From the NCBI GenBank assembly GCA_020848545.1, contig JADLHZ010000047.1:32420-96419 (forward strand): a stretch of 64,000 nt of DNA, in the 5' to 3' direction. The translations under genes and the position numbers were made by a program. Below the pieces are notes generated by a model, which was not told where the DNA came from, ran no database searches, and worked only from the letters and a program-made list of their open reading frames with translations. The DNA is from Deltaproteobacteria bacterium (lineage in GTDB: Bacteria; Myxococcota; JADLHZ01). Below, piece by piece: positions 30,613-46,351 of this stretch (the first letter of the stretch is position 1; every line of letters begins with the position of its first letter).

Positions 30613-31664
30613 TCGTCTTCTTCCTGCTCGGCCTTCTCCTTGGCGGCGACCGCTTCGCGCGCGCGGCCCAAGATGCCGAGCGAGCGCTGCACGAAGGCGT
30701 CGAGGTAGACGGCGAGAAAGCCGATCCAAGGCTTGAGGTCGCCCGGCAAATCCACGCGCAGCGTGACGTCGATGACGTGCGCGTCCGGTCCGTGCTGGCT
30801 GTCGATGCTTGCGACGATCTTGCCGCTCGCGTCGGTCAAGGTCGCCGCCGGCGTGCGCCCAAACGGCTCCTTCAGGGTCAGCGCGCGGTCTTTTTGCACG
30901 ACGCTCCACTCGAACGGCTTCTCGGGGTCGTGGTGCGGATCGCCGGTGATCGTGAACAGCGGCTCCTTCTTCGGCGATCGAACGACGCTCTCGCCACGGC
31001 CGTCGAGCAAGCGATACGCGTCGGCGAGCAACGCCGGCTCGACGAAGCGCGAGATCTTCGGCAGCGCAAACACCGGATAGAAGACGCGATCCAAGTGCAC
31101 GACGTAGCCGACCTCGTACTTTTCGAGCATCACCACGTTTTGCACGTCGAGCTCCAAAGGAAAGCCGAACGCCGGCGACTTCACGCGCACCGTTTGCATC
31201 AGCGCGAGCTTGTGCGCGAGAAAATGCGTCTGGAAGATGCCGAGCCGGCCGCCGCGCGCTTTCAGACACGCGGTCCGCAACGCCTCGGCGAAGGTCTTGC
31301 GCGGCGAGATCTTCTCGTTGCGAAAGAGCCCCCACGTGATCATCTCGGCGGAGAGGCCGTTGTGCAGGTCGTCCGGGCCGAGCTCGAACTCGCGCGCGAG
31401 CATCAGCAGCACCCGCTCACGTTCGCGATCCTCTGGCGCCCGCTTCATCCGCTCCGAGCTCGCGTCGAGCTTCCAGATCGGCTGCGCGAAGTTGTAGCCC
31501 CAGGCGTCCTTGTCGATGAGCTTCGTCCGGTGCGGATCGCGCGGCGGCCGCGGCGCGCGCACGGGCGGACCACCCTGGCGTTGGCCGGGCCGCTGCGGAC
31601 GTTTGGGGGGTGCCTGGGCCAAGCGCTTGCGTTCTCCGGCGCGGAACGGTTTGTAGAGAAGCAT
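30609..31664 (-). CDS. Hypothetical protein (351 aa), co-transcribed with the MidA-like methyltransferase
   Basis: Start at MLLYKPF (31664). The longer ORF N-extension is antisense to the nucleotidyltransferase gene. Confidence 0.45.
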   Translation of the reverse strand: MLLYKPFRAGERKRLAQAPPKRPQRPGQRQGGPPVRAPRPPRDPHRTKLIDKDAWGYNFAQPIWKLDASSERMKRAPEDRERERVLLMLAREFELGPDDLHNGLSAEMITWGLFRNEKISPRKTFAEALRTACLKARGGRLGIFQTHFLAHKLALMQTVRVKSPAFGFPLELDVQNVVMLEKYEVGYVVHLDRVFYPVFALPKISRFVEPALLADAYRLLDGRGESVVRSPKKEPLFTITGDPHHDPEKPFEWSVVQKDRALTLKEPFGRTPAATLTDASGKIVASIDSQHGPDAHVIDVTLRVDLPGDLKPWIGFLAVYLDAFVQRSLGILGRAREAVAAKEKAEQEEDE

Positions 31665-32613
31665 GTCAGCGCATCGGACGAAAGGATTTCTCCTCGCCGC
31701 CGGCTTCGGCACGCGGCTGTGGCCTCTGTCGGACGTTCGCGCCAAGCCGGCGTTCCCGTTTCGGGGGAAGGCGTTGATCGCGCACGTGGCGGCGCACATG
31801 CACGCCCACGGCATCCGCGACTTCTGGGTCAACACGCACCACTTGCCGACGAGCATCGACGTGGCGTTGCAACCCGCACGCGCGCTGCCGGGGGCGTCGT
31901 TCACGCTCGCGCACGAGCCCGAGATCCTCGGCACCTCGGGCGCCATCGTGAACCTGCGCGACGCCCTCGGCGACGGCGAAGTGTTGATCATGAACGCGAA
32001 GGTCGTGACGCAGATCGATCTCTCGGCGGTGATGGCGGCGCATCGCGCGTCCGAGGCGCCGGTGACGATGGTCTGCGTGCCGAATCCGAAGAAAGAGCGT
32101 TTCACCCACGTGGCCTTTGCGAAGGACGGCACGCTCGAAGGCTTCGTCTCCGGCGACAAGCTCGGCCCCGTCGACAAGCCTTACGTCTTCACCGGCATCC
32201 AAGTGCTCTCGCCGAGCTTCTTCGACTTCCTGCCGCCGCCTGGCTTCTCCGACACGATCAAGGACGTGTACCCGCGCATTCAGAGCGCCGGCCGCCGCAT
32301 CCACGTCTTCGCCGCGAACGAGAGCTGGAACGAGTTCTCGACGCTCGCGCGTTATCGCGACTTGCACGACGGCGGCTTCGTCGACGCGAGCGCAACGATC
32401 GGCAAAGGCGCGCGCACGGACGGCAGCGTCGTGTGGGAGCGCGCGCAGATCGGCGACGGCGCGATGCTCAAAGGATGCATCGTCGCGGACGGCACCGTCG
32501 TTCCACCCCGGACGACGCTCGAAAACGTCGCCATCATCGACGCCGCTCGCGTGAAGAACTTGGAAAAAGCGGCCACGCGCCTCGGCCCGCTCTTGTGCGC
32601 GCCGGTCGCGTGA
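31663..32613 (+). CDS. Sugar-phosphate nucleotidyltransferase with C-terminal left-handed beta-helix (MurU/mannose-1-P guanylyltransferase-like)
   Basis: [16 protein letters not shown] (GxGTRL) signature. Hexapeptide-repeat C-terminus. Confidence 0.75.
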
Positions 32614-32627
32614 GCGAAGCAGGACGC

Positions 32628-33058
32628 ATGACCCATCGAGCCAGCTGGGACGATTACTTCATGAACATCGCCAAGGTCGTGAGCTCGCGCGCCACCTGCC
32701 CGCGCAAGTCCGTCGGCGCGGTGATCGTGCGCGACAAAGTGATCTTATCGACGGGCTACAACGGCAGCCTGCGCGGCATGCCGCACTGCAACGACGTCGG
32801 TTGCATGATCGAGAACGGCCACTGCGTCGCCACGGTGCACGCCGAGCAGAACGCGATCCTCCACGCCGCGCGCCACGGCGTGAACATCGACGGCGCCACT
32901 TGCTACGTCACGGCGAGCCCGTGCTGGAACTGCTTCAAGAGCATCGCCAACAGCGGGCTCGTGCGGGTGGTCTACGGCGAGTTCTACCGCGACGAGCGCA
33001 TCTTCGACGTCTCGAAGAAGATCGGCATCGACCTCTTGCACCTGGGCGCGCCGCCGGC

Positions 33059-33062
<4 letters not shown>
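32628..33062 (+). CDS. dCMP deaminase (ComEB-like cytidine/deoxycytidylate deaminase)
   Basis: HAEQNAI zinc motif and PCWNC motif. AGGACG RBS. Confidence 0.8.
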
Positions 33063-35148: not shown

Positions 35149-35187
35149 CTTGACGTCGCGCGGGACGCCGCCGCAGTGTCTGAGAGC

Positions 35188-36369
35188 ATGCTGCCGATCT
35201 ACCTCGATCACCACGCGACGACGCCGCTCGATCCGCGCGTGCTCGCGGCGATGCAGCCGTACTTCACGGTGGACTTCGGCAACGCGTCGTCGCGCCAGCA
35301 CGCCTACGGATGGACCGCGGCGCACGCCGTCGACAGAGCGCGCGAGCATGTGGCGGCGTTGATCGGCGCCGACGATCCGAAGGAGATCATCTTCACGAGC
35401 ACCGCGACCGAGGCGAACAACCTCGTGTTGAAGGGCTTGGCCGCCGCGCTCGACGAAGATCACTTCGTCAGCGTGGTCACCGAGCATGCGAGCGTGCTCG
35501 AACCGCTCGCCGCGCTGAAAGAGCAAGGCAAGCGCGTGACGCTGCTGCCGGTCGACGGCGCGGGCATGGTCTCAGTCGACGCCGTGCGCGGCGCGATTGA
35601 AGATCGCACGATCGCCGTCTGCGTGATGCTCGCGAACAACGAGATCGGCACGCTTCAGCCGCTCGCGGAGATCGCCGCTGTTTGCCGCGAACGCGACGTC
35701 TACTGCGTGAGCGACATCGTCCAAGCGGCGGGCCACATTCCGGTCGACGTCAAGGCGCTCGGGCTCGACGCGGCCACACTCTCTGCCCACAAGCTGCATG
35801 GGCCAAAGGGCGCCGGCGCGCTCTGGCTCCGGCGCAGCAAGCCGCGCGTGCCGATCGCCGCGCAGATCCACGGCGGCGGGCATGAGCGTGAGCTGCGGGC
35901 GGGGACGCTCAACGTGCCGGCGATCGTCGGCTTCGGCGAGGCCGCGCGCATCGCCAGAGCCGAGCTCGACACCGACGCCGCGCGCCAGCGTTCTTTGCGC
36001 GACCGGCTGTTTCAGCGCATCACGGCCGGCGCGCGCGGCATCGTATTGAACGGCCCGAGCCTCGAAGGCGCGCGCCTGCCGCACAACCTGAACATCTCGA
36101 TCGAAGGCGTCGACGGTGAAGCGCTGCTCATGGAGCTGCGAGACCTCGCCGTCAGCAGCGGCTCGGCCTGTGCCTCGTCGACGCTCGAAGCATCGCACGT
36201 GCTTCGCGCCATCGGCCGGAGCGATGAGCTGGCGCACGCGGCGTTGCGCTTTGGGCTCGGTCGATTTACGAGCGAAGCCGAGATCGACGTCGCGGCGGAC
36301 CATGTGGTCGCCGGCGTCGCGCGCCTACGCTCGACTGGAGTGAAACATGTTGACCATCCTGAGCGATGA
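35188..36369 (+). CDS. iscS: Cysteine desulfurase (IscS/NifS family, class V aminotransferase)
   Basis: MLPIYLDHHATTP N-terminus, SAHKLHGPKG PLP-lysine motif, SSGSACAS active Cys loop. The ORF track also offers a GTG at 35176. Confidence 0.85.
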   Translation: MLPIYLDHHATTPLDPRVLAAMQPYFTVDFGNASSRQHAYGWTAAHAVDRAREHVAALIGADDPKEIIFTSTATEANNLVLKGLAAALDEDHFVSVVTEHASVLEPLAALKEQGKRVTLLPVDGAGMVSVDAVRGAIEDRTIAVCVMLANNEIGTLQPLAEIAAVCRERDVYCVSDIVQAAGHIPVDVKALGLDAATLSAHKLHGPKGAGALWLRRSKPRVPIAAQIHGGGHERELRAGTLNVPAIVGFGEAARIARAELDTDAARQRSLRDRLFQRITAGARGIVLNGPSLEGARLPHNLNISIEGVDGEALLMELRDLAVSSGSACASSTLEASHVLRAIGRSDELAHAALRFGLGRFTSEAEIDVAADHVVAGVARLRSTGVKHVDHPER

Positions 36370-36748
36370 CGACGCGGCCCCGAGCGAGGGCGGCGATCTC
36401 GGCGGCGACGACCCGGCCGTCTTCACGCTGACCGAGCGCGCGGCGAAGCAAGTGGCGAAGCTGCTTGCCGAAGAGCAAAAGACGAAGCCCGTGCAAGCGC
36501 TGCGCATCGGCGTGCGCGGCGGCGGCTGCAGCGGCCTGCAGTACTTCATGGAGATGACCGGCGCGCCGGAGCAAAACGACCATGTGCTCGTGCAGCACGG
36601 CGTCACCTTCTACATCGACAAGAAGAGCGCGAAGTACTTGCACGCCTGCGAGCTCGACTTCTCGAGCAGCCTGCAGTCGGCCGGCTTCAAGTGGAAGAAC
36701 CCGAACGAGAAGAAGAGCTGCGGCTGCGGCGAATCGTTCGCGGTGTGA
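36347..36748 (+). CDS. iscA: HesB/IscA/ErpA family Fe-S cluster insertion protein
   Basis: 133 aa ending CGCGESFAV. Overlaps the iscS 3' end. Confidence 0.8.
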   Translation: MLTILSDDDAAPSEGGDLGGDDPAVFTLTERAAKQVAKLLAEEQKTKPVQALRIGVRGGGCSGLQYFMEMTGAPEQNDHVLVQHGVTFYIDKKSAKYLHACELDFSSSLQSAGFKWKNPNEKKSCGCGESFAV

Positions 36749-36767
36749 GTGCAATCTTGAGTGCCAT

Positions 36768-37988
36768 GTGAACGCACCGGGCGACCTCGCCAGCGAACGC
36801 CGCATCGTCTTCGTTCTCGCCGCGGTCCAGTTCGTCAACATCTTGGACTTCATGATCGTGATGCCGCTCGGGCCGGACTTCGCCCGCGCGCTCGCCGTGC
36901 CTGTCGCCAACCTAGGCTACGTGGGCGGTGCTTACACGCTGGCGGCAGCCGTCAGCGGCATCATGGGCTCGTTCTTCCTCGATCGCTTCGATCGCCGTGT
37001 CGCCATGACCGTGAGCATGCTCGGCCTCGGCGCCGGCACTGCGCTCGGCGGCATTGCCTGGGACTTCGAGTCGCTGCTCTACGCGCGCATCATCGCCGGC
37101 GCGTTCGGCGGCCCGGCGACGTCGGTCGCGTTCGCGATCATCGCCGATCGCATTCCGCTCGAGCGCCGCGGCCGCGCGACTGGAGCCGTCATGGGCGCCT
37201 TCGCTGCGGCGAGCGTCCTCGGCGTACCGACCGGGCTCGAGCTCGCGCGCATCGGCGGCTGGAAGCTCCCCTTCTTCGCCATCGCCGGGCTGTGCTTCGC
37301 CATCACCGCTGGCGCGGCGTGGGTGCTCGAGCCGATGCGTGCGCACGTCGCCGCGGCTCGCGCGCCGACATGGCAATCGCTCGGCGCGCTCCTGCGCCCG
37401 CGGATCTTGCGCTCGTACCTGATGACCGCGCTCGCGATGGGCTCGGGCTTCATCCTCATCCCGAACATCTCGGCCTACGTGCAGGGCAATCTTCACTATC
37501 CGCGCGAGCGCCTCGGGATGCTCTACCTCTGCGGCGGCGTCATCAGCTTCGTCACGACCCGATACGCCGGGCGGCTCGTCGACCGCTACGGCTCGACGCT
37601 CGTGACGAACGTGGGCATCGCGCTGCTCTCGCTCACGATCTACGCGGGCTTCGTGGTAGTGCCACCGCAGATCCCAGCGCCGCTGATGTTCATGGCGTTC
37701 ATGCTCGCGATGGGCCTGCGCAACGTGGCGTACAACACACTGACCTCGAAGGTGCCAGCGCCGAACGAGCGGGCGCAGTTCATGTCACTGCAGTCGGCGG
37801 TCCAGCACTTGGCTTCTGCGAGCGGCGCCCTTATGTCGTCACGCATGCTGAGCGAGGGGCCGAATCAAGTGCTGATTGGGATGGATCACGTGGCGTGGGC
37901 GTCGATCGCCTTGGGGTGCGCGCTGCCCTTCGTCGTCTGGCGCGTCGAGACCGAGGTGCGGCGGGGCGTCGCCGAGATGCAGACATGA
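36768..37988 (+). CDS. MFS transporter
   Basis: About 12 hydrophobic segments. MFS-like loop motif. GTG start inferred at 36768. Confidence 0.65.
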   Translation: MNAPGDLASERRIVFVLAAVQFVNILDFMIVMPLGPDFARALAVPVANLGYVGGAYTLAAAVSGIMGSFFLDRFDRRVAMTVSMLGLGAGTALGGIAWDFESLLYARIIAGAFGGPATSVAFAIIADRIPLERRGRATGAVMGAFAAASVLGVPTGLELARIGGWKLPFFAIAGLCFAITAGAAWVLEPMRAHVAAARAPTWQSLGALLRPRILRSYLMTALAMGSGFILIPNISAYVQGNLHYPRERLGMLYLCGGVISFVTTRYAGRLVDRYGSTLVTNVGIALLSLTIYAGFVVVPPQIPAPLMFMAFMLAMGLRNVAYNTLTSKVPAPNERAQFMSLQSAVQHLASASGALMSSRMLSEGPNQVLIGMDHVAWASIALGCALPFVVWRVETEVRRGVAEMQT

Positions 37989-39400
37989 GACGGCTCCTGT
38001 GCGCTGTGCTGCTCTTGCTCGCAGCTTGTGGTCCTCGCGGTCTGCGCGCCACCGGCGCCACGTACTATCCGCTCTCGCCAGGCCCGTTCGCGCCGCTCGC
38101 GACCGACGGCGATCGCATCGTCGACGCGCGCGGCCGCCAGGTGATCCTGCGCGGGCTGCAGCATCACGCGTTGCAGGACGTGGCGTACCAAGGGCGCGAG
38201 GTCTTCGACGAGGACTACGCGCTCATCGCCGGGTGGGGCTTTCGTGTGCTGCGGGTGGCGATCTCGTGGAGCCGTGTCGAACCGCTGCCGGGCATGTATG
38301 CTGATTCTTACGTCGACGAAATCATACATGTGCTCGATCGCGCCGACGCCGCCGGGCTCGTCGTCATCCTCGAGTGGCACCAAGATCTCTGGGGCAAGTG
38401 CGCCGGGCCCACCGACGGCTTCAACAACGCCAACGGCGCGCCGGACTGGGCATGCGACCCGACGCTCTCTGGTCCGTTCGCGTACATCGCGCTCTTCGAT
38501 CGCATGTGGCGAAACGACGCCGGCCTCTTCGACGCGTACATCGCGGCCTTCTCGCACGTGATCGCGGCGGTCGCCGAGCATCCCGCGGTCGTCGGTTACG
38601 ACCTGTTCAACGAACCCTACGGCAGCGGCGACCCGAGCTTCGAGCAGGGCACGCTCTTTCCGAGGTACCGCGAGATGACGGCGCGCCTGCGCGAAGCCGG
38701 CGCCGGCGGCATCCTCTTTCTCGGCGCGCCCGGGTTTCGCAACGAGACGGGGCAGATGGCTGCCGAGCCGTTCACCGACGTCGATCCTGCGCTCGTCTTC
38801 GCGCCGCACCTCTACACGAGCTGGCTCTCGCTCTACATCTTCAACCAGAGCCCGAGCGCCGAGGTGAAGACGCAGGACTTCACGAACGCCGTCGCGCAGG
38901 CCGAGACCTTGGGGCTGCCGCTGTGGAACGGCGAGTGGGGCATCAACTACGGCTTGGCCGATTGGCGCGACTACGCCATTCGCCACGTGCGCCTCGAGGA
39001 CAAACACCGCATCGGCTCGGCGTACTGGGCGTTCAACCAGGCAACGCCGGGCCAAGGCGATCCGTCGGTCTCGGGCGCGACGGCGCTGTTGAACGAAGAT
39101 CGCTCGGTGCGCGAAGACTTGCTCGACGTGCTGTCGCGGCCGTACCCGCGGCAAACACCGGGCGTCCTCACCTCGCTCGAGTACGACTTCAAGACGCACG
39201 CGCTCGACGTCGCGTTCGAGGCGAACGCCACGCTCGACGCACTGATCCTCTACGCGCCGGCGCGGCACCTCACGGACGATCGCTGCCTTGTCGTGAGCGG
39301 GGGCGACGCGCGCTACGACTTCGACGCCGCGAACGAGCTCGTCCTCGTGTCCTTCGATCGTCCGGGGCCGAAGAAGGTCGCGCTGAAGCCGTGCCGCTGA
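37985..39400 (+). CDS. Glycoside hydrolase family 5-like lipoprotein
   Basis: Lipobox LLLAACG. NEP catalytic acid and GEWG nucleophile regions typical of GH5. The ATG overlaps the MFS stop (ATGA). Confidence 0.65.
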   Translation: MRRLLCAVLLLLAACGPRGLRATGATYYPLSPGPFAPLATDGDRIVDARGRQVILRGLQHHALQDVAYQGREVFDEDYALIAGWGFRVLRVAISWSRVEPLPGMYADSYVDEIIHVLDRADAAGLVVILEWHQDLWGKCAGPTDGFNNANGAPDWACDPTLSGPFAYIALFDRMWRNDAGLFDAYIAAFSHVIAAVAEHPAVVGYDLFNEPYGSGDPSFEQGTLFPRYREMTARLREAGAGGILFLGAPGFRNETGQMAAEPFTDVDPALVFAPHLYTSWLSLYIFNQSPSAEVKTQDFTNAVAQAETLGLPLWNGEWGINYGLADWRDYAIRHVRLEDKHRIGSAYWAFNQATPGQGDPSVSGATALLNEDRSVREDLLDVLSRPYPRQTPGVLTSLEYDFKTHALDVAFEANATLDALILYAPARHLTDDRCLVVSGGDARYDFDAANELVLVSFDRPGPKKVALKPCR

Positions 39401-39535
39401 GGGGTCTGCCCCTTGATCGGAGTGGCGAATCACGGCGCGTCGGCGCGGGCCGCGACGTGGGCGTGTACGAGCGCTCGCTCGCAAAGAGCGCGTCGAACGC
39501 GAGCTGCCGACTCGCGCGAGGCCACGCGCAGAGCG

Positions 39536-42526
39536 TCAAGCGAACGCGTCGTACTTCGTTTCCAGGTAGCGCAGAAAGTCCTCGCTGGTCAGCGTCCTGC
39601 CAGTCGCGCGGCGCATGAGCTCGGCAGCCGAATGTCGCAGGCCGTGGACGTGAATCGTGCGCCTCAGCCAGTCGTGCACCGGCGCGAGATCACCGGCCGC
39701 GAGACGGGCGTCGAGGTCCCTCATCTCTTCGCGCATGCGCGTCCAAAGCATCGCCGCATACAGGTTGCCCAAGGTGTAGGTCGGAAAGTAACCGAACGCG
39801 CCAAGCGCCCAATGAACGTCTTGCAGGCAACCATCGACGGGGTTTGTCGGCCGAACCCCGAGCGTGCGATCCATGGCGTCGTCCCACGCGCCTGGCAAGT
39901 CGTCGACGGCGAGGTCCCCCGAGAGCAACGCGATCTCGAGCTCGGTCCGCACCGCGATGTGTAAGTTGTAGCTCATCTCGTCGGCCTCGACGCGGATGAG
40001 GCTCGGCCGAACGACGTTCACCTCACGATAGACCTGCTCGGCGCTGAGCCCGGCGAACCCCTCCGGCAACCGCTCTCGCGCCGCCGGCAGCAGACCGCGC
40101 CAGAAGGCCAACGACCGACCCACTTGGTTCTCCCAAAGGCGCGACTGGGATTCGTGCACTCCCATCGACGGCGCGTCTGCGAGCAGCGTTGTCGCGTCGG
40201 CGGCGGGAAAACCCTGATCGTAGAGCCCATGACCGCCTTCGTGCAGCGCTGCGAAGAACCCGGCACGAAAATCGTTTGCCGCATAGCGCACGGTGAGTCG
40301 AACGTCGTGACTCCCGGCCGCGAGCGTGAACGGGTGCGACGAGACATCGACGCGGCCTCGCGAAAAATCGAAACCCATCTTGCCGAGGACGTGGAGCGCG
40401 AGCGCCTGCTGGCCGGCCTCGGGCCAGGCACGCCCGGCGAAGACCGACGGTCGAGCCTCGCTCAACGCTGCGCTGCGGCGCAACAAGGCCGATAGTCGCG
40501 TGCTCAGCGCCGCGAGCTCGGGCGCGATCGTCAGACGCGTGAGCCCCGGCTCGTGCTCGTCGAGTAGACCGTCGTACACGGCGTCGCCACCAGCGCCCGT
40601 GGGGAGCAGCGAGGACAGCGCGGCGCCGCGTTCGCGACTGAGCGCGACGACGCGAGCCAGGGCGGGCCCGAAGGTCGCGAAGCGACCCTCTGTCCGCGCG
40701 CGCTCCCAAGCGGCCAGCGCGTCCGACTTCGCCGCGGCGAACGCTCTGACCAAGGTATCCGGCAGGGCAAGCGCGAGCCGGCGAAGGCGCCTGAGCTGCG
40801 CCACCTCCGCGAGCAACGCGGTGTCCCCAGCGGCGGTCGCAGCGACGTCTTCGGCCGCGTCAATCAACTCCTCGTCGAGCAGCAGCTTGTGCCGCAGGCT
40901 CTCGAGCGTCGCCACTTGCTCGCCCCGTTGCGGGCGGCCGCCCTCGGGCAAGTACGTCTCTTCGTCCCAGCCAAGCAGGCCGATCGCGGCGTCGAGATCC
41001 CGCAGCACCCGCACCTTCTCACGCAGGGCGTCGCGCGAGCCGCTGGTGCGGACCTGCGATCCGAGCGAGACGTCGTCATGAGCGCGCGCGACGAGCAGCG
41101 CCGCAATGCCCCCGCGTTGCGCCACATTGACGACCTGCTTCTGCGACGCGCGCACGAGCACGCCGAGGCCGTGGGCGGTCGCGGCAAACCCCATGACGGT
41201 GAAGAACGGTTCGACGACGCGCTTGCCGGCAGAATCGAGCGTCGGGAACTCGAAGACCGGAATTGGCGCCGCGCGCTGCACGACCCACTGCTCGTGCGGA
41301 TCGTTCTCGGACGCGAGCGCGCGGTCAACAGCGGCGGTCCACTCTTCGCGGCTCGCCGCTGCCCCGAGCAAGACGCCGCTGCCGCCGTAGCCCCTGTTCG
41401 GCTTCAGCACGAGGTCGCGCTGCTCACTCGAGAGCAACTCCTCGAGCGCCACGTCGCGCCCATCCCAGCGCAGCGTACGTCGTCGCGAAACAGTGCGCGT
41501 CCACAGCACGTGTTTGTCGAAGACTTGGCGCGACTCGGGCGAGAAGTAGCGCTCGGCGAGCAGCGGATCGGTGAGCAACTCCCAGCCGCTCTTGTGATCG
41601 AAGTCGCCGCCGAGCGACGACACCACGCGGTTCTCGCTGAACAGCTGCCACATCGCGTCGAGCCGAACCCCTTGCTCGTCTTCGAGGGCGAGCAAATCAC
41701 GCAGCTCGTAGTCGCGATAGACGAGATCGACCACCGCCTCTCCGTAGCGCACCTCGCCGCCGGCGACGCTGAGCTCCGTCGGATCGGCGTGCACCACCTG
41801 CAGGCCGTGCTTGGCGGCAATGAAGACTGAAAGCGAGCGCTGCTCGTCAGGCCCGCTCTGCTCGTACTTCGGCTCGACAAACGCCAAGGTGCGGAGCGGG
41901 CGACCAATGGCGTCGGCGTGATCGAGCAACGCCTGCACGAAGAGCTCGCGTTGATCGCGCGGCAGCTCGAGGTGCAGTGCCGGATCGTGACGGCGCATCT
42001 CGCCCACCACATCACGCATCACCAGCGTCTCGGCGACTGGGGCGTAGTGAATGCCGCCGATTCCCGAAAGGTTCGGCTCGAGAAACGCGAGCGACTGTTG
42101 CCACGCCGCGCTGGAGAAGTCGCAGACCGCGTCGAGCCGACCATAGATCGGGTTTTGAGCGCCGTGACGGGCGCTCCAAAACGAGCGCAGCCTCTGCTCT
42201 TCACGGGCGTCGAGCGGCAACACGCGCCGTACGTCGGCGTCCTGCAAATAGAGATCAGGCAGGCGACGAAGCGCGTCGTTGATCACTTCGCAGACGTGGT
42301 GCACGTAGCTCAGCTGATCGGCGGTCGCGGCGAGTGGCCGAGCAAGGATGCGCACGGGCTCGGTCTGACCATCGCGATCGTAGACGACGTGATTGGCGAG
42401 CGCGTCGGCACGCAGCCGCGCCTCCATCCGCCGCGCCGCCGAGTTGCTGATGAGCGACGCCGCGCGCCGGAGCTGCGCATCGATCGTCTTGCCGCGTAGA
42501 CCGACGATCTCGGACGGGCTCAACAT
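39536..42526 (-). CDS. Fusion protein (996 aa): N-terminal circularly-permuted ATP-grasp/glutathionylspermidine-synthase-like domain plus C-terminal complete M32 carboxypeptidase Taq-like metallopeptidase
   Basis: C-terminal half carries HEGGHGLY (HExxH), HESQSRLWEN, IRVEADEMSYNLHI and LLGWDEETYLPEGG, all M32 hallmarks. N-terminal half has LVLKPNRGYGGSGVLLG, ATP-grasp-like. ATG with GAAGGAG RBS at 42526. One continuous ORF in the track. Confidence 0.55.
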   Translation of the reverse strand: MLSPSEIVGLRGKTIDAQLRRAASLISNSAARRMEARLRADALANHVVYDRDGQTEPVRILARPLAATADQLSYVHHVCEVINDALRRLPDLYLQDADVRRVLPLDAREEQRLRSFWSARHGAQNPIYGRLDAVCDFSSAAWQQSLAFLEPNLSGIGGIHYAPVAETLVMRDVVGEMRRHDPALHLELPRDQRELFVQALLDHADAIGRPLRTLAFVEPKYEQSGPDEQRSLSVFIAAKHGLQVVHADPTELSVAGGEVRYGEAVVDLVYRDYELRDLLALEDEQGVRLDAMWQLFSENRVVSSLGGDFDHKSGWELLTDPLLAERYFSPESRQVFDKHVLWTRTVSRRRTLRWDGRDVALEELLSSEQRDLVLKPNRGYGGSGVLLGAAASREEWTAAVDRALASENDPHEQWVVQRAAPIPVFEFPTLDSAGKRVVEPFFTVMGFAATAHGLGVLVRASQKQVVNVAQRGGIAALLVARAHDDVSLGSQVRTSGSRDALREKVRVLRDLDAAIGLLGWDEETYLPEGGRPQRGEQVATLESLRHKLLLDEELIDAAEDVAATAAGDTALLAEVAQLRRLRRLALALPDTLVRAFAAAKSDALAAWERARTEGRFATFGPALARVVALSRERGAALSSLLPTGAGGDAVYDGLLDEHEPGLTRLTIAPELAALSTRLSALLRRSAALSEARPSVFAGRAWPEAGQQALALHVLGKMGFDFSRGRVDVSSHPFTLAAGSHDVRLTVRYAANDFRAGFFAALHEGGHGLYDQGFPAADATTLLADAPSMGVHESQSRLWENQVGRSLAFWRGLLPAARERLPEGFAGLSAEQVYREVNVVRPSLIRVEADEMSYNLHIAVRTELEIALLSGDLAVDDLPGAWDDAMDRTLGVRPTNPVDGCLQDVHWALGAFGYFPTYTLGNLYAAMLWTRMREEMRDLDARLAAGDLAPVHDWLRRTIHVHGLRHSAAELMRRATGRTLTSEDFLRYLETKYDAFA

Positions 42527-42555
42527 CTTGTGACGGCTCCTTCGGTGCGCCGCAC

Positions 42556-43050
42556 TCAGCCGCCTTGCCGAGTCGCTCGCGATCGGGCCTCTTCGATGGC
42601 TTCGGTCATCTGCGCACCGTCCATGGGCATCAGCGCCATACCCTGGATCCACTTCACTGCGTCTTGAACGGAGGAGAATGTTCTCGTCTTCTTATCGAAG
42701 ATCAACATACCGGTGAGGATCGCCCGAGCGCCCGCGGCGATGAACCCAGAACCCTCGACGATGTTCGCGCTCGCCCCAACAGAATCCACGTTCTGCTTCG
42801 TCATCTCGTCGACGAGCCGGCGGACCTCGGGGCTGATCTTTGGCAAGCTCTTGGGCCGAATGATCGACACCGTGGCGAGCAGCCCTGCCGACTCTGCACT
42901 CAGCCGGCGAAACAAACCTCCGACCGCGACGATGTCGGATTCCACGACGTTGCTTCCCCAGACTTGGAGGACGAGGCGTCCGGTGTGACCGAGCCACAAG
43001 CCATCAGAGTCGTGCGCCTGATTGAGAACCATGTCGAAGAATCTCAGCAA
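42556..43050 (-). CDS. Hypothetical protein (~160 aa)
   Basis: Start TTG 43050 or ATG 43032. No family recognised. Confidence 0.35.
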   Translation of the reverse strand: MLRFFDMVLNQAHDSDGLWLGHTGRLVLQVWGSNVVESDIVAVGGLFRRLSAESAGLLATVSIIRPKSLPKISPEVRRLVDEMTKQNVDSVGASANIVEGSGFIAAGARAILTGMLIFDKKTRTFSSVQDAVKWIQGMALMPMDGAQMTEAIEEARSRATRQGG

Positions 43051-43097
43051 GAAAGGACTTGCGTCAACGCCGGGTCAAAGAAAGCGCGAGCCGAGCG

Positions 43098-44447
43098 TCA
43101 CCGAAGCGCGGCCCTGGCGATCGCGCGGACGTCGACTCGGGCGCCGTGCGTCTTCTCCACTTGTTGAGCGAGCTCCTCGATCGCATCGGACGCGTCGAAC
43201 GCCTGCAGCACCGTCACCGCCGCCGAAAGGAACGCGTCCTTGTCGCGCACGTGAAGATAGACGCGCGCCGCCTGGGCGATGACGCGCCGGAGCTGCAGCA
43301 CCTGCGACGACCGCGCGTCCTTCTTGTAGCGCATCAGCTCCGGCACCAAGCGCGCGACGAGGCTCGGATCGCAAGCCGCGGCGCGCATCACCGACAAGTA
43401 GTAGTCGAACGATTGTCCCGCGAACGACGGCGGCACGTGCGCCGCGATGCCGTGCAGATCCGACGGGCTCACGCGCGCCACGTGCTCCGCGTAGGCGTCG
43501 GCGAGCCGCGGCGCTGCGCTCAGCCCGTCCGCCGCGAGCGCGCAGATCTCGAACGCGCTCTGGCGCTGCGCCGGCACGTGCGCGCGGCCGCCCTGGTGCT
43601 CCGTCCAGCGTGCGAGGGCCGGGAAGCTCACGTTGAAGCTGAACGCGCCGGCGCCGTGGAGCACCGCGATCGGCGCGCGATCGTGATCGTGATCTTCGAT
43701 GCGCACGTGCGCCTTGTCGCCGACGAGCGCGAGCAGCTCACCGCCGGCCGCGGCCCGCAGCGCTTCCAAGCAGCGCAACGCAACAGTGGGCAAGAGAAAC
43801 GAGCGCGGGCCTTTCGTGGCGCTGAGCTCTTTGAGCACTGCCGCGAGCGCCGGATCCGCGTAGCGCTCACCTGCGACCACGGCGTAGTCGAAGCGCAGCG
43901 TGTCGGCCTGTGAGAGCGCGGGGACGTGGCCTTCGCTGAGCACGCCGTCGGCGACGCGAAAGTAGTCCTGCGGCAGCGAATCGAAGACGTAGTTGGCGAT
44001 GCACACGAGCGGGCCGGTCGCCGCGAGCGCCGGCCGCTCGGCGTCGAAGACCATGAAGTCGGCGAGCCCTTCGGCCGCAAGCGCCTGCCACGCCGGATGC
44101 GCGCGGAAGGCCGCGACGTTGGTCTCGGCGAAGTCCGTGAGCGTGTAGATGATCCGCGGCAGGCGCAAGGTGCGTCGGATCTCTTCATACGCCTGCACGA
44201 ACGCGTAGGCGAAGCGGCCGGCACCACTGCCGAGCTCGATCACGCGCACGGTCTGCGTTCGCTCGACGCGGCTTGCGCCGACGAGGTCGTCAATCCACGC
44301 GGCGGTGAGGCGCGCGTAGCAATGCGCGAGGGCGGCGTGGCTGCTCATGTGCCACGGGATGTCGTCCTCAATCCACGCCGCAGGACCTTTCTGCTCGTAG
44401 AATTCACGTTGCCTGCGCCAGATCGGCGATTCGGAGAGCGGGGTCAT
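43098..44447 (-). CDS. MidA/NDUFAF7-like SAM-dependent methyltransferase family protein, paralogue of 29140..30612
   Basis: 449 aa. IELGSGAGRF motif. Collinear similarity to 29140..30612 (ANYLFDSLP vs ANYVFDSLP, LLLTGDKA vs LALVGDKA). Confidence 0.55.
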   Translation of the reverse strand: MTPLSESPIWRRQREFYEQKGPAAWIEDDIPWHMSSHAALAHCYARLTAAWIDDLVGASRVERTQTVRVIELGSGAGRFAYAFVQAYEEIRRTLRLPRIIYTLTDFAETNVAAFRAHPAWQALAAEGLADFMVFDAERPALAATGPLVCIANYVFDSLPQDYFRVADGVLSEGHVPALSQADTLRFDYAVVAGERYADPALAAVLKELSATKGPRSFLLPTVALRCLEALRAAAGGELLALVGDKAHVRIEDHDHDRAPIAVLHGAGAFSFNVSFPALARWTEHQGGRAHVPAQRQSAFEICALAADGLSAAPRLADAYAEHVARVSPSDLHGIAAHVPPSFAGQSFDYYLSVMRAAACDPSLVARLVPELMRYKKDARSSQVLQLRRVIAQAARVYLHVRDKDAFLSAAVTVLQAFDASDAIEELAQQVEKTHGARVDVRAIARAALR

Positions 44448-44488
44448 GGCGCGGGTGCTCGCACTTTACGCCAGCGTCGCCGCGGACG

Positions 44489-45619
44489 CTAGAGCGTGGT
44501 GCGGATGGGCAGCGACATGCCGGATTCGCTGGCGAGGACGATGCCTTCTGGGCCGAAGAAGGTGACGGTGCGCGACTGGCCGAGCACGGTCTCGAGGGCG
44601 AAGACTTCGTAAGTGTTGTCGTACGCGTCGGTCATCGTCGCGGTGTAGCAGGTCATCGCCCCGTCGCCGTCCGGGTTGGCGGTGAAGTAGGCTTCTTCGG
44701 CTTCCAGGTTGGCTTCGACGATCGGGATGGCGGCTTCCGGTACCGACGTGACTTCCATCGCTCTCCATCCACCGGCGTTGAAGCTCGCGATGGTCGCGCT
44801 GATGTCCAACGCCCCGTTCGGGCTGTCTTCGCCAGGCTCGTTGGCGAGGACCGGCATGTCCGCCAGCGCGTCCCAGCTCAGCGTCTCGCGGGTGATCACG
44901 CCAGCGTCGTCGTACGTGCGGGTGGCGATGCCTGCGGCGACCCGCCTGGCCGAGCCGGCGAACGACGCGACTTCGCCGCGCGCGACGTCGACGATCGCAG
45001 CGCGCTCGCCGAAATCGGATTGGTCAGTCATGCCCATGATGAGGTACGTGCGGCCACCGGGCGCGCGCACGGTCGTCAAGCTGTGGATGGGATAATATTC
45101 TTCGGCGACGATGCGCGTCGTGCGCGTCACGACGTCGAACACCGCGAGCGCCATGCCGTGGTTCTCGTCGCCACCCAAGCGGCCGGCGACCGGGTAACAC
45201 ACGTAGCGGTTGTCGATGATGCGCACATCGGGTCGCTCCGCGGTGGCGGAGATGGCCTCGCCGACGTCCACCTCCTCGCCGTTCACCCGAACGGTCACCG
45301 GCCATTCGTAGTCGCCGCTTTCCCCGATGACTTGCAGGTTCGACGCGCCAGGCGTGTTCACCCAGCGCCCAGCGGTCACCGACGCGGCGAACTGGTCGTA
45401 CACGGCGAGCGACTCGAACGAGCCCGGCGAGGCGAGCAGGTGCGCGATCACAGCGCGACGATTTTCGGTGGTGTCAAACGAGCTGCGCAGTAACGCCCGC
45501 GCGGCGCTGCGGGCTTCGCCGCCAGTGATGGCAACCGTGCCGTCGCTCAGCGGGTTGGTGTCCGCGGTCTCTTGTTGAAAGCGATCGAGTAGGCGTTCAG
45601 AGCGGCAAATGGGGGGCAT
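44489..45619 (-). CDS. Hypothetical protein (376 aa)
   Basis: Long ORF with window-typical codon usage. No recognisable motifs or signal peptide. Confidence 0.45.
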   Translation of the reverse strand: MPPICRSERLLDRFQQETADTNPLSDGTVAITGGEARSAARALLRSSFDTTENRRAVIAHLLASPGSFESLAVYDQFAASVTAGRWVNTPGASNLQVIGESGDYEWPVTVRVNGEEVDVGEAISATAERPDVRIIDNRYVCYPVAGRLGGDENHGMALAVFDVVTRTTRIVAEEYYPIHSLTTVRAPGGRTYLIMGMTDQSDFGERAAIVDVARGEVASFAGSARRVAAGIATRTYDDAGVITRETLSWDALADMPVLANEPGEDSPNGALDISATIASFNAGGWRAMEVTSVPEAAIPIVEANLEAEEAYFTANPDGDGAMTCYTATMTDAYDNTYEVFALETVLGQSRTVTFFGPEGIVLASESGMSLPIRTTL

Positions 45620-45844
45620 ATTGGATCCTCCGCAGATCTTTTCGGAGGCGAACGCAACTCAACGCGTCAAGAACATATGACGGAGACGAACAAGTGTCGC
45701 GTCGAGGGAGCGGGTTCTCACCGTTCGTAGGCGCCCATGCCGCGGTTGGTGCGTAGGCGACGGTCGGCGCCGCTGATGTCGAACGGCAGCGCCTCGTTGA
45801 TGATGCCGTCGAGGTCTGCACCGCGATCTCGCGCGACACCTTGG

Positions 45845-46351
45845 CTACTTGCGCTTCGCTTGATGTGCCGTCTGATGCGCCACCAGGCCGTCCATCGAGA
45901 AGCCGAGCTCGTGGAGGAACGCTTGCATCTTCTTCAGCGTGTACTGGGTCTTTGGCGAAGTGAGGTTCGGATCCACGGCGAGCAGGCTGTCGTAGAAAGC
46001 GGCGAGCGTGGCCGGGATAAGCGCGCGCTCTTCGGCTTCGAGCGCGAGCTTGGCTTGCTGCAGCCGCTTGCGTTCGCCACGGAAGCGTTGCTCGAGCGCT
46101 TGCGTGGCGAGGAAAAAGTCCTGCGCAGGTGGCGCCGCGGCCGCTTTGCTCTCGGTCGCCGACGCCTTTCCTCGCACACGCTGCAGGACGTCTTGCGTCG
46201 AGTCGCCCGCGCCGCGCAAGGCCGGGTTCACCGCGAGCAGCTTGCGCATCGTCTCGAGGTCGACGCCGATCGCGGCGGCGCGGGCTTCGTTCGTCTCATC
46301 GGACTTCGGCTTCGTTCCCACCCGCAGAGTATACGTCAAGTCCGGGCCCAA
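45845..46351 (-). CDS. Hypothetical protein (168 aa), paralogue of 6006..6509
   Basis: The C-terminus VDPNLTSPKTQYTLKKMQAFLHELGFSMDGLVAHQTAHQAKRK aligns with the spoVR-downstream protein. Confidence 0.5.
   Translation of the reverse strand: MGPDLTYTLRVGTKPKSDETNEARAAAIGVDLETMRKLLAVNPALRGAGDSTQDVLQRVRGKASATESKAAAAPPAQDFFLATQALEQRFRGERKRLQQAKLALEAEERALIPATLAAFYDSLLAVDPNLTSPKTQYTLKKMQAFLHELGFSMDGLVAHQTAHQAKRK

What the first reader, a model, noticed from the sequence alone, without database searches (positions are those of the whole stretch)
39536..42526. Single 996-aa ORF fusing a circularly-permuted ATP-grasp/GspS-like domain to a complete M32 carboxypeptidase
The C-terminal ~500 aa contain all M32 hallmarks (HEGGH, HESQSRLWEN, IRVEADE..YNLHI). 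The N-terminal ~520 aa look like the ATP-grasp-type peptide ligase/amidase family (LVLKPNRGYGGSGV). A ligase-like and carboxypeptidase fusion would couple peptide or amide ligation with C-terminal trimming. I do not recall such a fusion as a described architecture. It could also be a frameshift artefact joining two adjacent genes.
Basis: partly seen in the sequence, partly recalled or inferred. Interest (0 to 1): 0.55.

Follow-up and report, generated by a model that had tools for sequence, protein, structure and literature searches.

The report
Conserved ATP-grasp ligase–M32 carboxypeptidase fusion enzyme
This is a real, widely conserved but unstudied bacterial gene that joins an ATP-using amide-bond-forming enzyme to a complete zinc enzyme that clips residues off peptide ends, so one protein can probably both add to and remove from the end of a small peptide.

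Summary
The 996-aa ORF is real. It lies on the minus strand at 39536-42526. The ATG start is supported by an SD-like GGAG and by the N-termini of homologues.

- **C-terminal half (residues 501-992):** a complete Peptidase_M32 (E 6e-147). HEXXH and the five other family motifs are invariant or nearly so in 117 fused orthologues.
- **N-terminal half (residues 1-484):** no Pfam hit above threshold. Its AlphaFold model (pLDDT 92) matches eukaryotic-type glutathione synthetase, Cp1B ligase, YjfC and GspS/TryS synthetase over its full length. These are the circularly permuted ATP-grasp ligases. In addition, 67 of 91 family members hit Pfam CP_ATPgrasp_2.
- **Not a frameshift artefact:** more than 117 full-length fused orthologues (984-1035 aa, 50-62% identity) occur in Deltaproteobacteria, Polyangiales, Planctomyces, Methyloceanibacter and Gamma-/Alphaproteobacteria. 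Both halves form single clades, which points to one ancient fusion.
- **Organisation:** the two domains are joined by a disordered linker, and no neighbouring gene is conserved.
- **Database and literature status:** public records call it 'carboxypeptidase M32/Taq' or 'hypothetical'. I found no paper describing the architecture.

Most likely it is a bifunctional ligase/carboxypeptidase working on the C-terminus of a small peptide. It would be functionally analogous to trypanothione/glutathionylspermidine synthetase-amidase and to RimB-RimK hybrids. The substrate is unknown. I rate it a new variant of a known kind, of moderate interest.

The parts
39536..42526 (-). Whole gene: 996-aa two-domain protein plus stop codon
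   Evidence: ORF list and translation. 100% identical to NCBI MAG protein IT381_13740, Deltaproteobacteria bacterium (P0270).
42537..42540 (-). Shine-Dalgarno-like GGAG, 10 nt upstream of the ATG at 42526
   Evidence: Read directly from the sequence. Homologues start at the equivalent Met.
41075..42526 (-). N-terminal domain, residues 1-484: circularly permuted (glutathione-synthetase/GspS-type) ATP-grasp ligase fold
   Evidence: AF2 model pLDDT 92, pTM 0.91. Foldseek PDB top hits are 1m0w, 2hgs, 9cjn, 7uk6, 2ioa and 2vpm. 67 of 91 relatives hit PF14403. 63 residues are invariant across 91 relatives.
42071..42079 (-). E150-P-N152, invariant; inferred Mg/ATP-site E-x-N motif of the ATP-grasp core
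   Evidence: E150 and N152 are invariant in 117 of 117 fused orthologues and in the 91 family members of alignment A1. The assignment as metal ligands is an inference by analogy with glutathione synthetase.
41381..41404 (-). K375-P-N-R-G-Y-G381-G382: Lys plus glycine-rich loop, the nucleotide-binding signature
   Evidence: K375, P376, G381 and G382 are invariant in 117 of 117. This stretch aligns to the equivalent loop of 3n6x ('putative glutathionylspermidine synthase') and Cp1B 9cjn. It is also the only part that hits Pfam CP_ATPgrasp_1 and ATPgrasp_ST.
41039..41074 (-). Interdomain linker, residues ~485-496
   Evidence: pLDDT is below 50 at 485-493 in the full-length model and at 489-500 in the N-domain model. 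It is one of the least conserved 20-residue blocks (0.47), yet its length is almost constant across orthologues.
39551..41026 (-). C-terminal domain, residues 501-992: complete Peptidase_M32 (carboxypeptidase Taq family)
   Evidence: PF02074 E 6.1e-147, model positions 2-489 of 489. Best solved relative is the Thermus thermophilus carboxypeptidase 3hoa/5wvu, E 2e-112.
40229..40243 (-). HEGGH (residues 762-766): zinc-binding and catalytic HEXXH motif
   Evidence: H762 in 116 of 117; E763 and H766 in 117 of 117.
40145..40156 (-). HESQ (residues 791-794): M32 motif. By my own recollection, E792 is the third zinc ligand.
   Evidence: E792 is invariant in 117 of 117. The motif list comes from PMC7918520.

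Best explanation
The gene encodes one genuine bifunctional cytoplasmic enzyme.

The N-terminal domain is a glutathione-synthetase/GspS-type, circularly permuted ATP-grasp ligase. It should use ATP to phosphorylate a carboxylate, most plausibly the C-terminal carboxylate of a small peptide. An amine or amino acid then attacks, forming a new amide bond.

The C-terminal domain is a fully equipped M32 zinc carboxypeptidase, which hydrolyses the C-terminal residue off short peptides.

The two chemistries are inverse operations on a peptide C-terminus. They are tethered by a flexible linker of roughly 12-15 residues. I therefore propose that they act on the same small peptide as a make-and-break pair, with the M32 domain removing what the ligase adds, or limiting how much it adds. 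This would set the level or length of the product, as in trypanothione/glutathionylspermidine synthetase-amidase and RimB-RimK.

Shown: the architecture, the folds, conservation of the catalytic motifs in both halves, a single origin of the fusion, and its wide distribution. Inferred: that both domains are active, that they share a substrate, and that their activities are antagonistic. The substrate is unknown.
For: - **Architecture is real and conserved.** There are 452 hits at E<=1e-50, and the 120 listed include 119 non-identical fused homologues (965-1035 aa, 97-100% coverage, 50-62% identity), 116 of which were aligned in A2. An orthologue in an independent genome is 57% identical end to end.
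- **Single origin.** Both halves are monophyletic in NJ trees against stand-alone relatives. The only exceptions look like truncated fusions, though only P0018 and P0125 were checked to run across the junction.
- **M32 half is catalytically complete.** Full-length PF02074 hit. HPF, DxRxT, HExxH, HESQ, IRxxAD and GxxQDxHW are conserved in 117 orthologues (motif list from PMC7918520).
- **N half is a ligase fold.** High-confidence model with full-length Foldseek matches to GS, homoglutathione synthetase, Cp1B, YjfC, GspS and TryS. Non-permuted ATP-grasps match only partially, with TMq about 0.25. The Lys/Gly-rich loop, E-x-N and R-x-D motifs are invariant.
- **Chemistry.** ATP-grasp enzymes phosphorylate the carboxylate partner, then condense it with an amine (PMC12568646).
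- **Precedents for ATP-grasp ligase plus antagonistic peptidase in one protein.** TryS-amidase, described as having 'conflicting synthetic and hydrolytic activities' (PMC2427367), and a RimB-RimK hybrid enzyme (PMC11957791).
- **Self-contained unit.** No conserved neighbouring genes in seven fused loci.
Against: - There is no biochemical evidence and the substrate is unknown.
- The full-length model has pTM 0.59, against 0.91 for the N domain alone. No fixed interdomain interface or channel is predicted.
- Characterised M32 enzymes have broad specificity, so a dedicated reversal of the ligase product is not implied by the family.
- Unregulated antagonistic activities would waste ATP, and no regulatory element was identified.
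- Three stand-alone N-domain homologues examined are not next to M32 genes. Functional coupling outside the fused clade is therefore unsupported.
- Residue-level mapping onto the glutathione synthetase active site could not be done. hhalign against the hGS sequence gave only 9.9% probability.
Confidence: 0.4

Rival explanations
1. Sequential C-terminal remodelling. The M32 domain first trims one or more C-terminal residues from a peptide. This exposes a specific carboxylate, which the ATP-grasp domain then ligates to a different amino acid or amine such as a polyamine. The net effect is C-terminal residue exchange or capping rather than a make-and-break cycle.
For: Most gene fusions join consecutive steps of a pathway. 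The architecture and intact active sites are the same as for the best explanation. The structural relative YjfC belongs to a pair of enzymes reported to have peptide-spermidine ligase activity; I know this only from the reference title cited within PMC12568646. Homoglutathione synthetase is also among the fold matches.
Against: The domain order is ligase first, peptidase second, although order is not decisive. No precursor-peptide gene or transporter is conserved nearby. There is no direct evidence for any substrate.
Confidence: 0.3
2. Loose coupling only. The M32 domain is a general peptide-recycling carboxypeptidase and the ligase makes an unrelated small amide metabolite. The fusion would merely co-express them, or feed released amino acids to the ligase as amine donors.
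For: M32 enzymes are broad-specificity peptidases (PMC7918520). The domains are joined by a disordered linker with no confident interface, pTM 0.59.
Against: The fusion has been kept intact in more than 117 orthologues across several phyla, with near-constant linker length. Both halves form their own clades, distinct from stand-alone relatives, and carry clade-specific invariant residues such as E542, R545, E574, R633 and D770 in the M32 half. This argues for co-adaptation.
Confidence: 0.17
3. One domain is catalytically inactive and serves as a peptide-binding or regulatory module for the other.
For: The query's N domain falls below every Pfam threshold. Pseudo-enzymes are common in fusions.
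Against: All M32 motifs and the ATP-grasp Lys/Gly-loop, E-x-N and R-x-D residues are invariant in 117 orthologues at only 50-62% overall identity. The window protein keeps all 63 residues that are invariant in the wider N-domain family.
Confidence: 0.1
4. Assembly or frameshift artefact joining two adjacent genes.
For: Some fused homologues in public assemblies are split by frameshifts (L005, L006). That is the opposite kind of error.
Against: More than 117 independent full-length fusions. Colinear end-to-end alignment with L001 through the linker. An identical 996-aa protein is in NCBI (P0270).
Confidence: 0.01

Closest known systems
Trypanothione synthetase-amidase and E. coli glutathionylspermidine synthetase/amidase (GspSA)
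   Same: One polypeptide combines a circularly permuted ATP-grasp C:N ligase with a peptidase or amidase that can undo an amide bond (PMC2427367). The synthetase domains are significant fold matches to the N domain: 2ioa E 7e-10, 2vpm E 1e-7.
   Different: In those enzymes the hydrolase is an N-terminal CHAP/papain-like cysteine amidase. Here it is a C-terminal M32 zinc carboxypeptidase, so the domain order is reversed. There is no Pfam GSP_synth hit. No evidence points to glutathione or spermidine as substrates.
RimK / RimB system and the RimB-RimK hybrid enzyme
   Same: An ATP-grasp ligase that extends a C-terminus is paired with, and in some organisms fused to, a protease that removes the added residues (PMC11957791).
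   Different: [quoted passage not shown] The target there is ribosomal protein RpsF. By my own recollection of the M32 literature, M32 enzymes act on short peptides.
Eukaryotic-type glutathione / homoglutathione synthetase (1m0w, 2hgs, 3kal, 5oes)
   Same: Best full-length fold matches: E 4e-16 to 1e-13, TM 0.6-0.7 over about 500 columns. Their chemistry is the addition of an amino acid to the C-terminal carboxylate of a small peptide.
   Different: Only 10-16% identity. There are no Pfam GS hits. Profile-to-sequence alignment fails, with hhalign probability 9.9%. Those enzymes carry no fused peptidase.
Pfam CP_ATPgrasp_2 (PF14403) / CP_ATPgrasp_1 (PF04174), uncharacterised circularly permuted ATP-grasp families
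   Same: 67 of 91 relatives of the N domain hit PF14403 (best E 2.5e-8) and 18 hit PF04174. Some fused orthologues carry precomputed PF14403 plus PF02074 hits.
   Different: The window protein itself is sub-threshold: 11.9 bits against a cut-off of 23.1 for PF04174, and no PF14403 hit at all. The family behaves as a divergent, largely unannotated branch.
Carboxypeptidase Taq / T. thermophilus, B. subtilis and P. furiosus M32 carboxypeptidases
   Same: Full-length homology and all family motifs.
   Different: Characterised M32 enzymes are single-domain proteins of about 500 aa. This clade carries an N-terminal ligase domain of about 485 aa and has clade-specific invariant residues.
Cp1B (E-64 pathway ligase, 9cjn) and E. 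coli YjfC (7uk6)
   Same: Fold matches with E 2e-14 and 2e-11. Cp1B is a biochemically validated amide-forming ATP-grasp with the homoglutathione-synthetase-like three-domain architecture (PMC12568646).
   Different: Both are stand-alone enzymes in other contexts. Sequence similarity to the N domain is marginal: E 0.45, limited to the Gly-rich loop.

Membership tests
Peptidase M32 (Pfam PF02074, carboxypeptidase Taq family) | Profile match above the curated threshold over the whole domain | tested here: met
   490.6 bits against a cut-off of 25.1, E 6.1e-147, model positions 2-489 of 489, residues 501-992.
Peptidase M32 (Pfam PF02074, carboxypeptidase Taq family) | HEXXH zinc/catalytic motif plus the HPF, DXRXT, HESQ, IRXXAD and GXXQDXHW motifs (list from PMC7918520) | tested here: met
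   HPF at 731, DVRLT at 741, HEGGH at 762, HESQ at 791, IRVEAD at 844, GCLQDVHW at 899. The key residues are conserved in 115-117 of 117 fused orthologues.
Peptidase M32 (Pfam PF02074, carboxypeptidase Taq family) | Close sequence relationship to experimentally solved M32 carboxypeptidases | tested here: met
   3hoa/5wvu E 2e-112, 7a03 E 3e-102, 3hq2 E 5e-93, 1k9x E 3e-89.
Peptidase M32 (Pfam PF02074, carboxypeptidase Taq family) | Zn-dependent release of C-terminal residues from peptides | not testable with these tools
   Requires an enzyme assay.
Circularly permuted ATP-grasp (Pfam CP_ATPgrasp_2 PF14403 / CP_ATPgrasp_1 PF04174) | The query itself scores above the curated threshold | tested here: not met
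   No PF14403 hit at E<=1. PF04174 gives 11.9 bits against a cut-off of 23.1, over residues 361-416 only.
Circularly permuted ATP-grasp (Pfam CP_ATPgrasp_2 PF14403 / CP_ATPgrasp_1 PF04174) | Homology through intermediate sequences of the same family | tested here: met
   67 of 91 relatives (47-56% identical to the query) hit PF14403, best E 2.5e-8, and 18 hit PF04174. Fused orthologues P0282, P0292, P0317 and P0369 carry PF14403 plus PF02074.
Circularly permuted ATP-grasp (Pfam CP_ATPgrasp_2 PF14403 / CP_ATPgrasp_1 PF04174) | Permuted ATP-grasp topology, as in eukaryotic GS and GspS, rather than the classical order | tested here: met
   Order-dependent Foldseek alignments of about 500 columns with TM 0.6-0.7 to permuted enzymes (1m0w, 2hgs, 9cjn, 2ioa). 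Classical ATP-grasps (1gsa, synapsin, LysX) give only TMq 0.24-0.28.
Circularly permuted ATP-grasp (Pfam CP_ATPgrasp_2 PF14403 / CP_ATPgrasp_1 PF04174) | ATP-dependent carboxylate-amine ligase activity | not testable with these tools
   Only conservation of K375, the G381/G382 loop, E150/N152 and R130/D132 is shown.
Eukaryotic-type glutathione synthetase | Sequence-level membership, by Pfam GS domains or profile alignment to human GS | tested here: not met
   No GS Pfam hit. hhalign of the family profile against the 2hgs sequence gives probability 9.9%, and the alignment is spurious.
Eukaryotic-type glutathione synthetase | Residues that bind gamma-Glu-Cys and Gly | not testable with these tools
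   No structural superposition or coordinates were available. By-eye motif correspondences (E-x-N, R-x-D, K-P-x-R...GG, GG[VI]AA) are leads only.
Glutathionylspermidine/trypanothione synthetase-amidase | GSP_synth-type synthetase domain together with a CHAP cysteine amidase domain | tested here: not met
   No GSP_synth or CHAP Pfam hit. The hydrolase here is M32. Only fold-level similarity of the synthetase domain is seen (2ioa, 2vpm).

The most novel reading that the evidence does not exclude
The fusion defines a previously unrecognised bacterial C-terminal editing enzyme. It would be a ribosome-independent machine that removes the C-terminal residue of a specific small peptide and, at the cost of ATP, re-ligates a different residue or amine, or cycles a C-terminal tag on and off. 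That would resemble tubulin tyrosination/detyrosination or RimK/RimB. By the Rosetta-stone argument, it would also assign peptide-C-terminus ligation as the function of the large, unannotated stand-alone family of about 490 aa (1105 hits at E<=0.001).
Probability: 0.2. Interest if true: 0.7.

Novelty: new variant of a known kind. Interest (0 to 1): 0.45.

Why it matters
Annotation pipelines label these roughly 1000-aa proteins 'carboxypeptidase M32/Taq' or 'hypothetical' and ignore half of the protein.

Recognising the N-terminal half as a GS/GspS-type ATP-grasp ligase gives a testable functional hypothesis for two groups. One is the fusion clade, with hundreds of sequences in soil and aquatic Proteobacteria, Myxococcota-like lineages and Planctomycetes. 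The other is the much larger stand-alone family of 'hypothetical' proteins of about 490 aa.

It would also add a third, independently evolved example of an ATP-grasp ligase tethered to a peptidase, after GspSA/TryS-amidase and RimB-RimK. That would strengthen the idea that pairing synthesis and hydrolysis in one protein is a general way to control small peptide conjugates or C-terminal modifications.

Tried and rejected
- **Direct sequence searches of the N domain against the PDB.** The single sequence gave only noise. The family profile gave marginal hits restricted to the Gly-rich loop: 3n6x E 0.22 and 9cjn E 0.45.
- **hhalign of the family profile against human glutathione synthetase.** The comparison gave 9.9% probability and a spurious alignment. 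Residue-by-residue mapping of the GS active site was therefore abandoned, and motif correspondences are reported only as inference.
- **Unavailable paper.** Iyer et al. 2009 (PMC3268129), the paper I recall as defining the circularly permuted ATP-grasp families, is not held.
- **Search for conserved operon partners.** Seven fused loci (window, L001, L005-L009) and three stand-alone loci (L002-L004) share no neighbour. The 164-aa ORF just upstream in the window has no Pfam hit. It also has no similarity to the ORFs upstream of the fusion gene in L005 and L006.
- **Regulatory elements.** There are no Rfam families at gathering score in 39000-46000. No promoter-like site and no minus-strand terminator-like site was found around the gene. 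The single terminator-like match, on the + strand at 45550-45565, is fewer than the shuffled expectation.
- **Exact-sequence contig look-up of the window protein.** It found nothing, although an identical NCBI protein exists (P0270).
- **Genome-contig scan with a single protein.** It returned only one locus.
- **Truncated fused hits.** The hits of 592-828 aa were first suspected to be a shorter architecture. They are contig ends or frameshifted genes.
Full report
**1. Observation**

The window carries an uninterrupted ORF on the minus strand. It ends at 39536 and can start at GTG 42652 (1038 aa) or ATG 42526 (996 aa). The ATG is the credible start for two reasons. Fused and stand-alone homologues begin MLTPAE/MLSPAE at exactly that position. 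A GGAG lies 10 nt upstream, 29 nt after the stop of the preceding ORF. The region has about 65-72% G+C, like its surroundings. An identical 996-aa protein is on record at NCBI as 'MAG: hypothetical protein IT381_13740 [Deltaproteobacteria bacterium]' (P0270).

**2. The C-terminal half**

- Pfam Peptidase_M32 matches residues 501-992 over model positions 2-489 of 489, with E 6.1e-147.
- The closest solved proteins are bona fide M32 carboxypeptidases: Thermus thermophilus 3hoa/5wvu at E 2e-112, then 7a03, 5giv, B. subtilis 3hq2, P. furiosus 1k9x and T. cruzi 3dwc.
[quoted passage not shown] All are present here: HPF at 731, DVRLT at 741, HEGGH at 762, HESQ at 791, IRVEAD at 844 and GCLQDVHW at 899.
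- The key residues of these motifs are conserved in 115-117 of 117 fused orthologues.

The peptidase half therefore looks catalytically complete and is under purifying selection.

**3. The N-terminal half**

The query itself has no significant Pfam or NCBIfam hit. The only matches are sub-threshold hits of the LVLKPNRGYGGSG stretch to CP_ATPgrasp_1, ATPgrasp_ST and a glutathione synthetase model.

It does belong to a large family. There are 1105 hits at E<=0.001 among the candidates scored, mostly stand-alone 'hypothetical' proteins of about 490 aa. Scanned individually, 67 of 91 family members hit Pfam CP_ATPgrasp_2 (best E 2.5e-8) and 18 hit CP_ATPgrasp_1.

An AlphaFold model built on that alignment is confident, with mean pLDDT 92 and pTM 0.91. 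Foldseek against the PDB gives full-length matches of about 500 columns to these enzymes:

| Match | PDB entry | E-value | TM |
|---|---|---|---|
| Yeast glutathione synthetase | 1m0w | 4e-16 | 0.67-0.70 |
| Human, plant and trypanosome GS; homoglutathione synthetase | 2hgs, 5oes, 2wyo, 3kal and others | 2e-15 to 7e-11 | 0.47-0.74 |
| Fungal E-64 pathway ligase Cp1B | 9cjn | 2e-14 | 0.61-0.63 |
| E. coli YjfC | 7uk6 | 2e-11 | 0.51-0.63 |
| E. coli GspS synthetase domain | 2ioa | 7e-10 | 0.46-0.53 |
| Leishmania trypanothione synthetase | 2vpm | 1e-7 | 0.43-0.51 |

Classical, non-permuted ATP-grasp enzymes (E. coli GshB, synapsin, LysX) match only partially, with TMq 0.24-0.28.

Several positions are invariant both in 91 family members and in 117 fused orthologues: R130, E150, N152, Y270-R271-D272, K312, K375-P376, G381-G382, R459 and Q462. 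D132, K463 and N467 are invariant in the 91 and at least 90% conserved in the 117.

By eye, these line up with the R-x-D, E-x-N, K-P-x-R-x-GG and GG[VI]AA elements of human glutathione synthetase. I could not confirm that mapping, because hhalign against the verified 2hgs sequence failed. I treat it as inference only.

**4. Is the fusion real?**

Yes.

- A GTDB genome (Deltaproteobacteria bacterium PRO2, L001) has a 1001-aa ORF. It aligns colinearly with the window protein from residue 1 to 994 at 57% identity, straight through the linker.
- A search with the whole protein returned 452 hits at E<=1e-50. Besides the identical P0270, the 120 listed are fused homologues of 965-1035 aa with 97-100% coverage and 50-62% identity.
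- The sources name them 'carboxypeptidase Taq', 'carboxypeptidase M32' or 'hypothetical protein'. Named source organisms include Polyangiales, Planctomyces, Methyloceanibacter, Gammaproteobacteria and Alphaproteobacteria.
- In the library clustered at 50% identity, the fusion collapses to a handful of clusters (P0121, P0122, P0123 and others). Stand-alone M32 clusters are far more numerous.
- The shorter 'fused' hits seen first (592-828 aa) are contig ends or frameshift-split genes. In L005 and L006 the remaining M32 fragments follow immediately.
- In neighbour-joining trees, the N domains of fused proteins form one clade. It is interrupted only by three short, probably truncated proteins.
- The fused M32 domains likewise form one clade, with one 5'-truncated exception.

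The simplest reading is a single ancient fusion that has since been maintained.

**5. Organisation**

In the full-length AlphaFold model both domains are confident (mean pLDDT 91.4). The linker is disordered, with pLDDT below 50 at residues 485-493. The pTM is only 0.59, so no fixed mutual orientation is predicted. The linker block is among the least conserved, at 0.47 mean column identity. Its length is almost constant, however: 27 residues in 112 of 117 orthologues and 25 in this protein.

A few residues are invariant in the fused clade but rare in stand-alone relatives. In the M32 half these are E542, R545, E574, R633 and D770. In the ligase half they include C79, C135, R190, Q192 and R334. 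They are candidates for an interface or for altered specificity.

No gene neighbour is conserved among seven fused loci. The three stand-alone N-domain loci sampled do not sit next to M32 genes. There is no Rfam family, no promoter-like site and no minus-strand terminator-like site around the gene. By eye, the N-terminus shows no signal peptide (not tested with a predictor), so the protein is probably cytoplasmic. The enzyme appears to be a self-contained unit.

**6. Mechanism**

Established chemistry:
- ATP-grasp enzymes phosphorylate the carboxylate partner and then condense it with an amine (PMC12568646).
- The closest fold relatives add an amino acid or polyamine to the carboxylate of a small peptide or acid. 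Examples are GS, homoglutathione synthetase, GspS/TryS and Cp1B. For YjfC/YgiC, the reference title cited reports peptide-spermidine ligase activity.
- M32 enzymes remove C-terminal residues from peptides.

The two halves therefore perform inverse operations at a carboxy terminus.

Two precedents exist for an ATP-grasp ligase tethered to a peptidase that undoes its product. One is trypanothione synthetase-amidase, described as having 'conflicting synthetic and hydrolytic activities' (PMC2427367), along with the related GspSA. The other is the RimB-RimK hybrid (PMC11957791).

My best model, at confidence 0.4, is a make-and-break pair acting on the C-terminal amide of one small peptide. The main rival, at 0.3, is sequential trimming followed by ligation, that is, C-terminal exchange or capping. 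Lesser rivals are loose coupling (0.17) and one dead domain (0.10). An artefact is excluded (0.01).

What is shown: the architecture, the folds, motif conservation, a single origin and wide distribution. What is inferred: that both domains are active, that they share a substrate, and the direction of coupling. The substrate is unknown.

**7. Comparison with the known, and novelty**

The C-terminal domain is a member of family M32, with all tested criteria met.

The N-terminal domain works like a GS/GspS-type ligase and belongs to the circularly permuted ATP-grasp assemblage by fold and by transitive profile hits. It fails direct Pfam membership. It cannot be filed as a glutathione synthetase or a GspS, because those sequence criteria were tested and not met.

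No paper in the searchable library mentions M32 together with 'circularly permuted ATP-grasp' or with 'carboxypeptidase' and 'ATP-grasp'. The library is incomplete, though, and the key 2009 survey by Iyer et al. could not be read.

The sequences themselves are already public, under names that ignore the ligase half. I therefore rate this a new variant of a known kind: a third type of ATP-grasp-ligase/peptidase bifunctional enzyme. It is moderately interesting (0.45). It is a clean Rosetta-stone clue for a large unannotated family and is directly testable. It is not conceptually unprecedented.

Noticed in passing
window 42556-43050 (-): A 164-aa ORF ends 29 nt upstream of the fusion gene on the same strand, so it may be co-transcribed. 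It has no Pfam hit. Local G+C is about 0.62-0.63 against about 0.68 around it. It is not similar to the ORFs upstream of the fusion gene in L005 and L006.
   Followed up: partly
window 43098-44447 (-) and 44489-45619 (-): A 449-aa ORF has a weak Methyltransf_28 hit (E 2.4e-6). A 376-aa ORF has no Pfam hit. Both lie upstream on the same strand as the fusion gene.
   Followed up: no
L006 3598-4161 and L007 843-1640: Glutathione S-transferase genes lie a few genes (two in L007, four in L006) from the fusion gene in two unrelated loci. This could be chance. It is worth a statistical check, given the glutathione-synthetase-like fold of the ligase domain.
   Followed up: no
L003 8001-11254: A stand-alone N-domain homologue (P0090) is followed after 24 nt by a 591-aa Amidohydro_3 metal hydrolase. 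This is another possible ligase/hydrolase pairing.
   Followed up: no
proteins P0138 and P0185: Other M32 proteins carry different N-terminal extensions. P0138 is 933 aa with M32 at 292-786, so it is extended at both ends. P0185 is 628 aa with M32 at 122-619. M32 may be fused to further partners.
   Followed up: no
L005 7001-9971 and L006 7001-9970: The fusion gene is split by frameshifts into an N-terminal piece plus M32 fragments in a Planctomycetaceae MAG and in an ENA assembly. In the ENA assembly, neighbouring genes (FGGY_N/FGGY_C) are also split, so assembly errors are likelier than pseudogenes.
   Followed up: partly
window 7896-7963 and 53548-53655: There is a perfect 15-bp tandem repeat of 4.5 copies. 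There is also an 18-bp repeat of 6 copies (90% matches) inside the 835-aa ORF at 53306-55813, which has no Pfam hit.
   Followed up: no
window 30777-33062 (+): A 761-aa ORF has a C-terminal cytidine/deoxycytidylate deaminase domain, also matched by MafB19-like deaminase, at residues 623-737. Its long N-terminal part is unannotated.
   Followed up: no
window 35176-39400 (+): Downstream and convergent to the fusion gene lie a class-V aminotransferase, an Fe-S cluster biosynthesis (Fe-S_biosyn) protein, an MFS transporter and a GH5 cellulase. By eye, the cellulase has a lipoprotein-like signal sequence, and the first two look like a NifS/IscS-type cysteine desulfurase and an IscA/HesB protein. 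None of this is conserved at other fused loci.
   Followed up: partly
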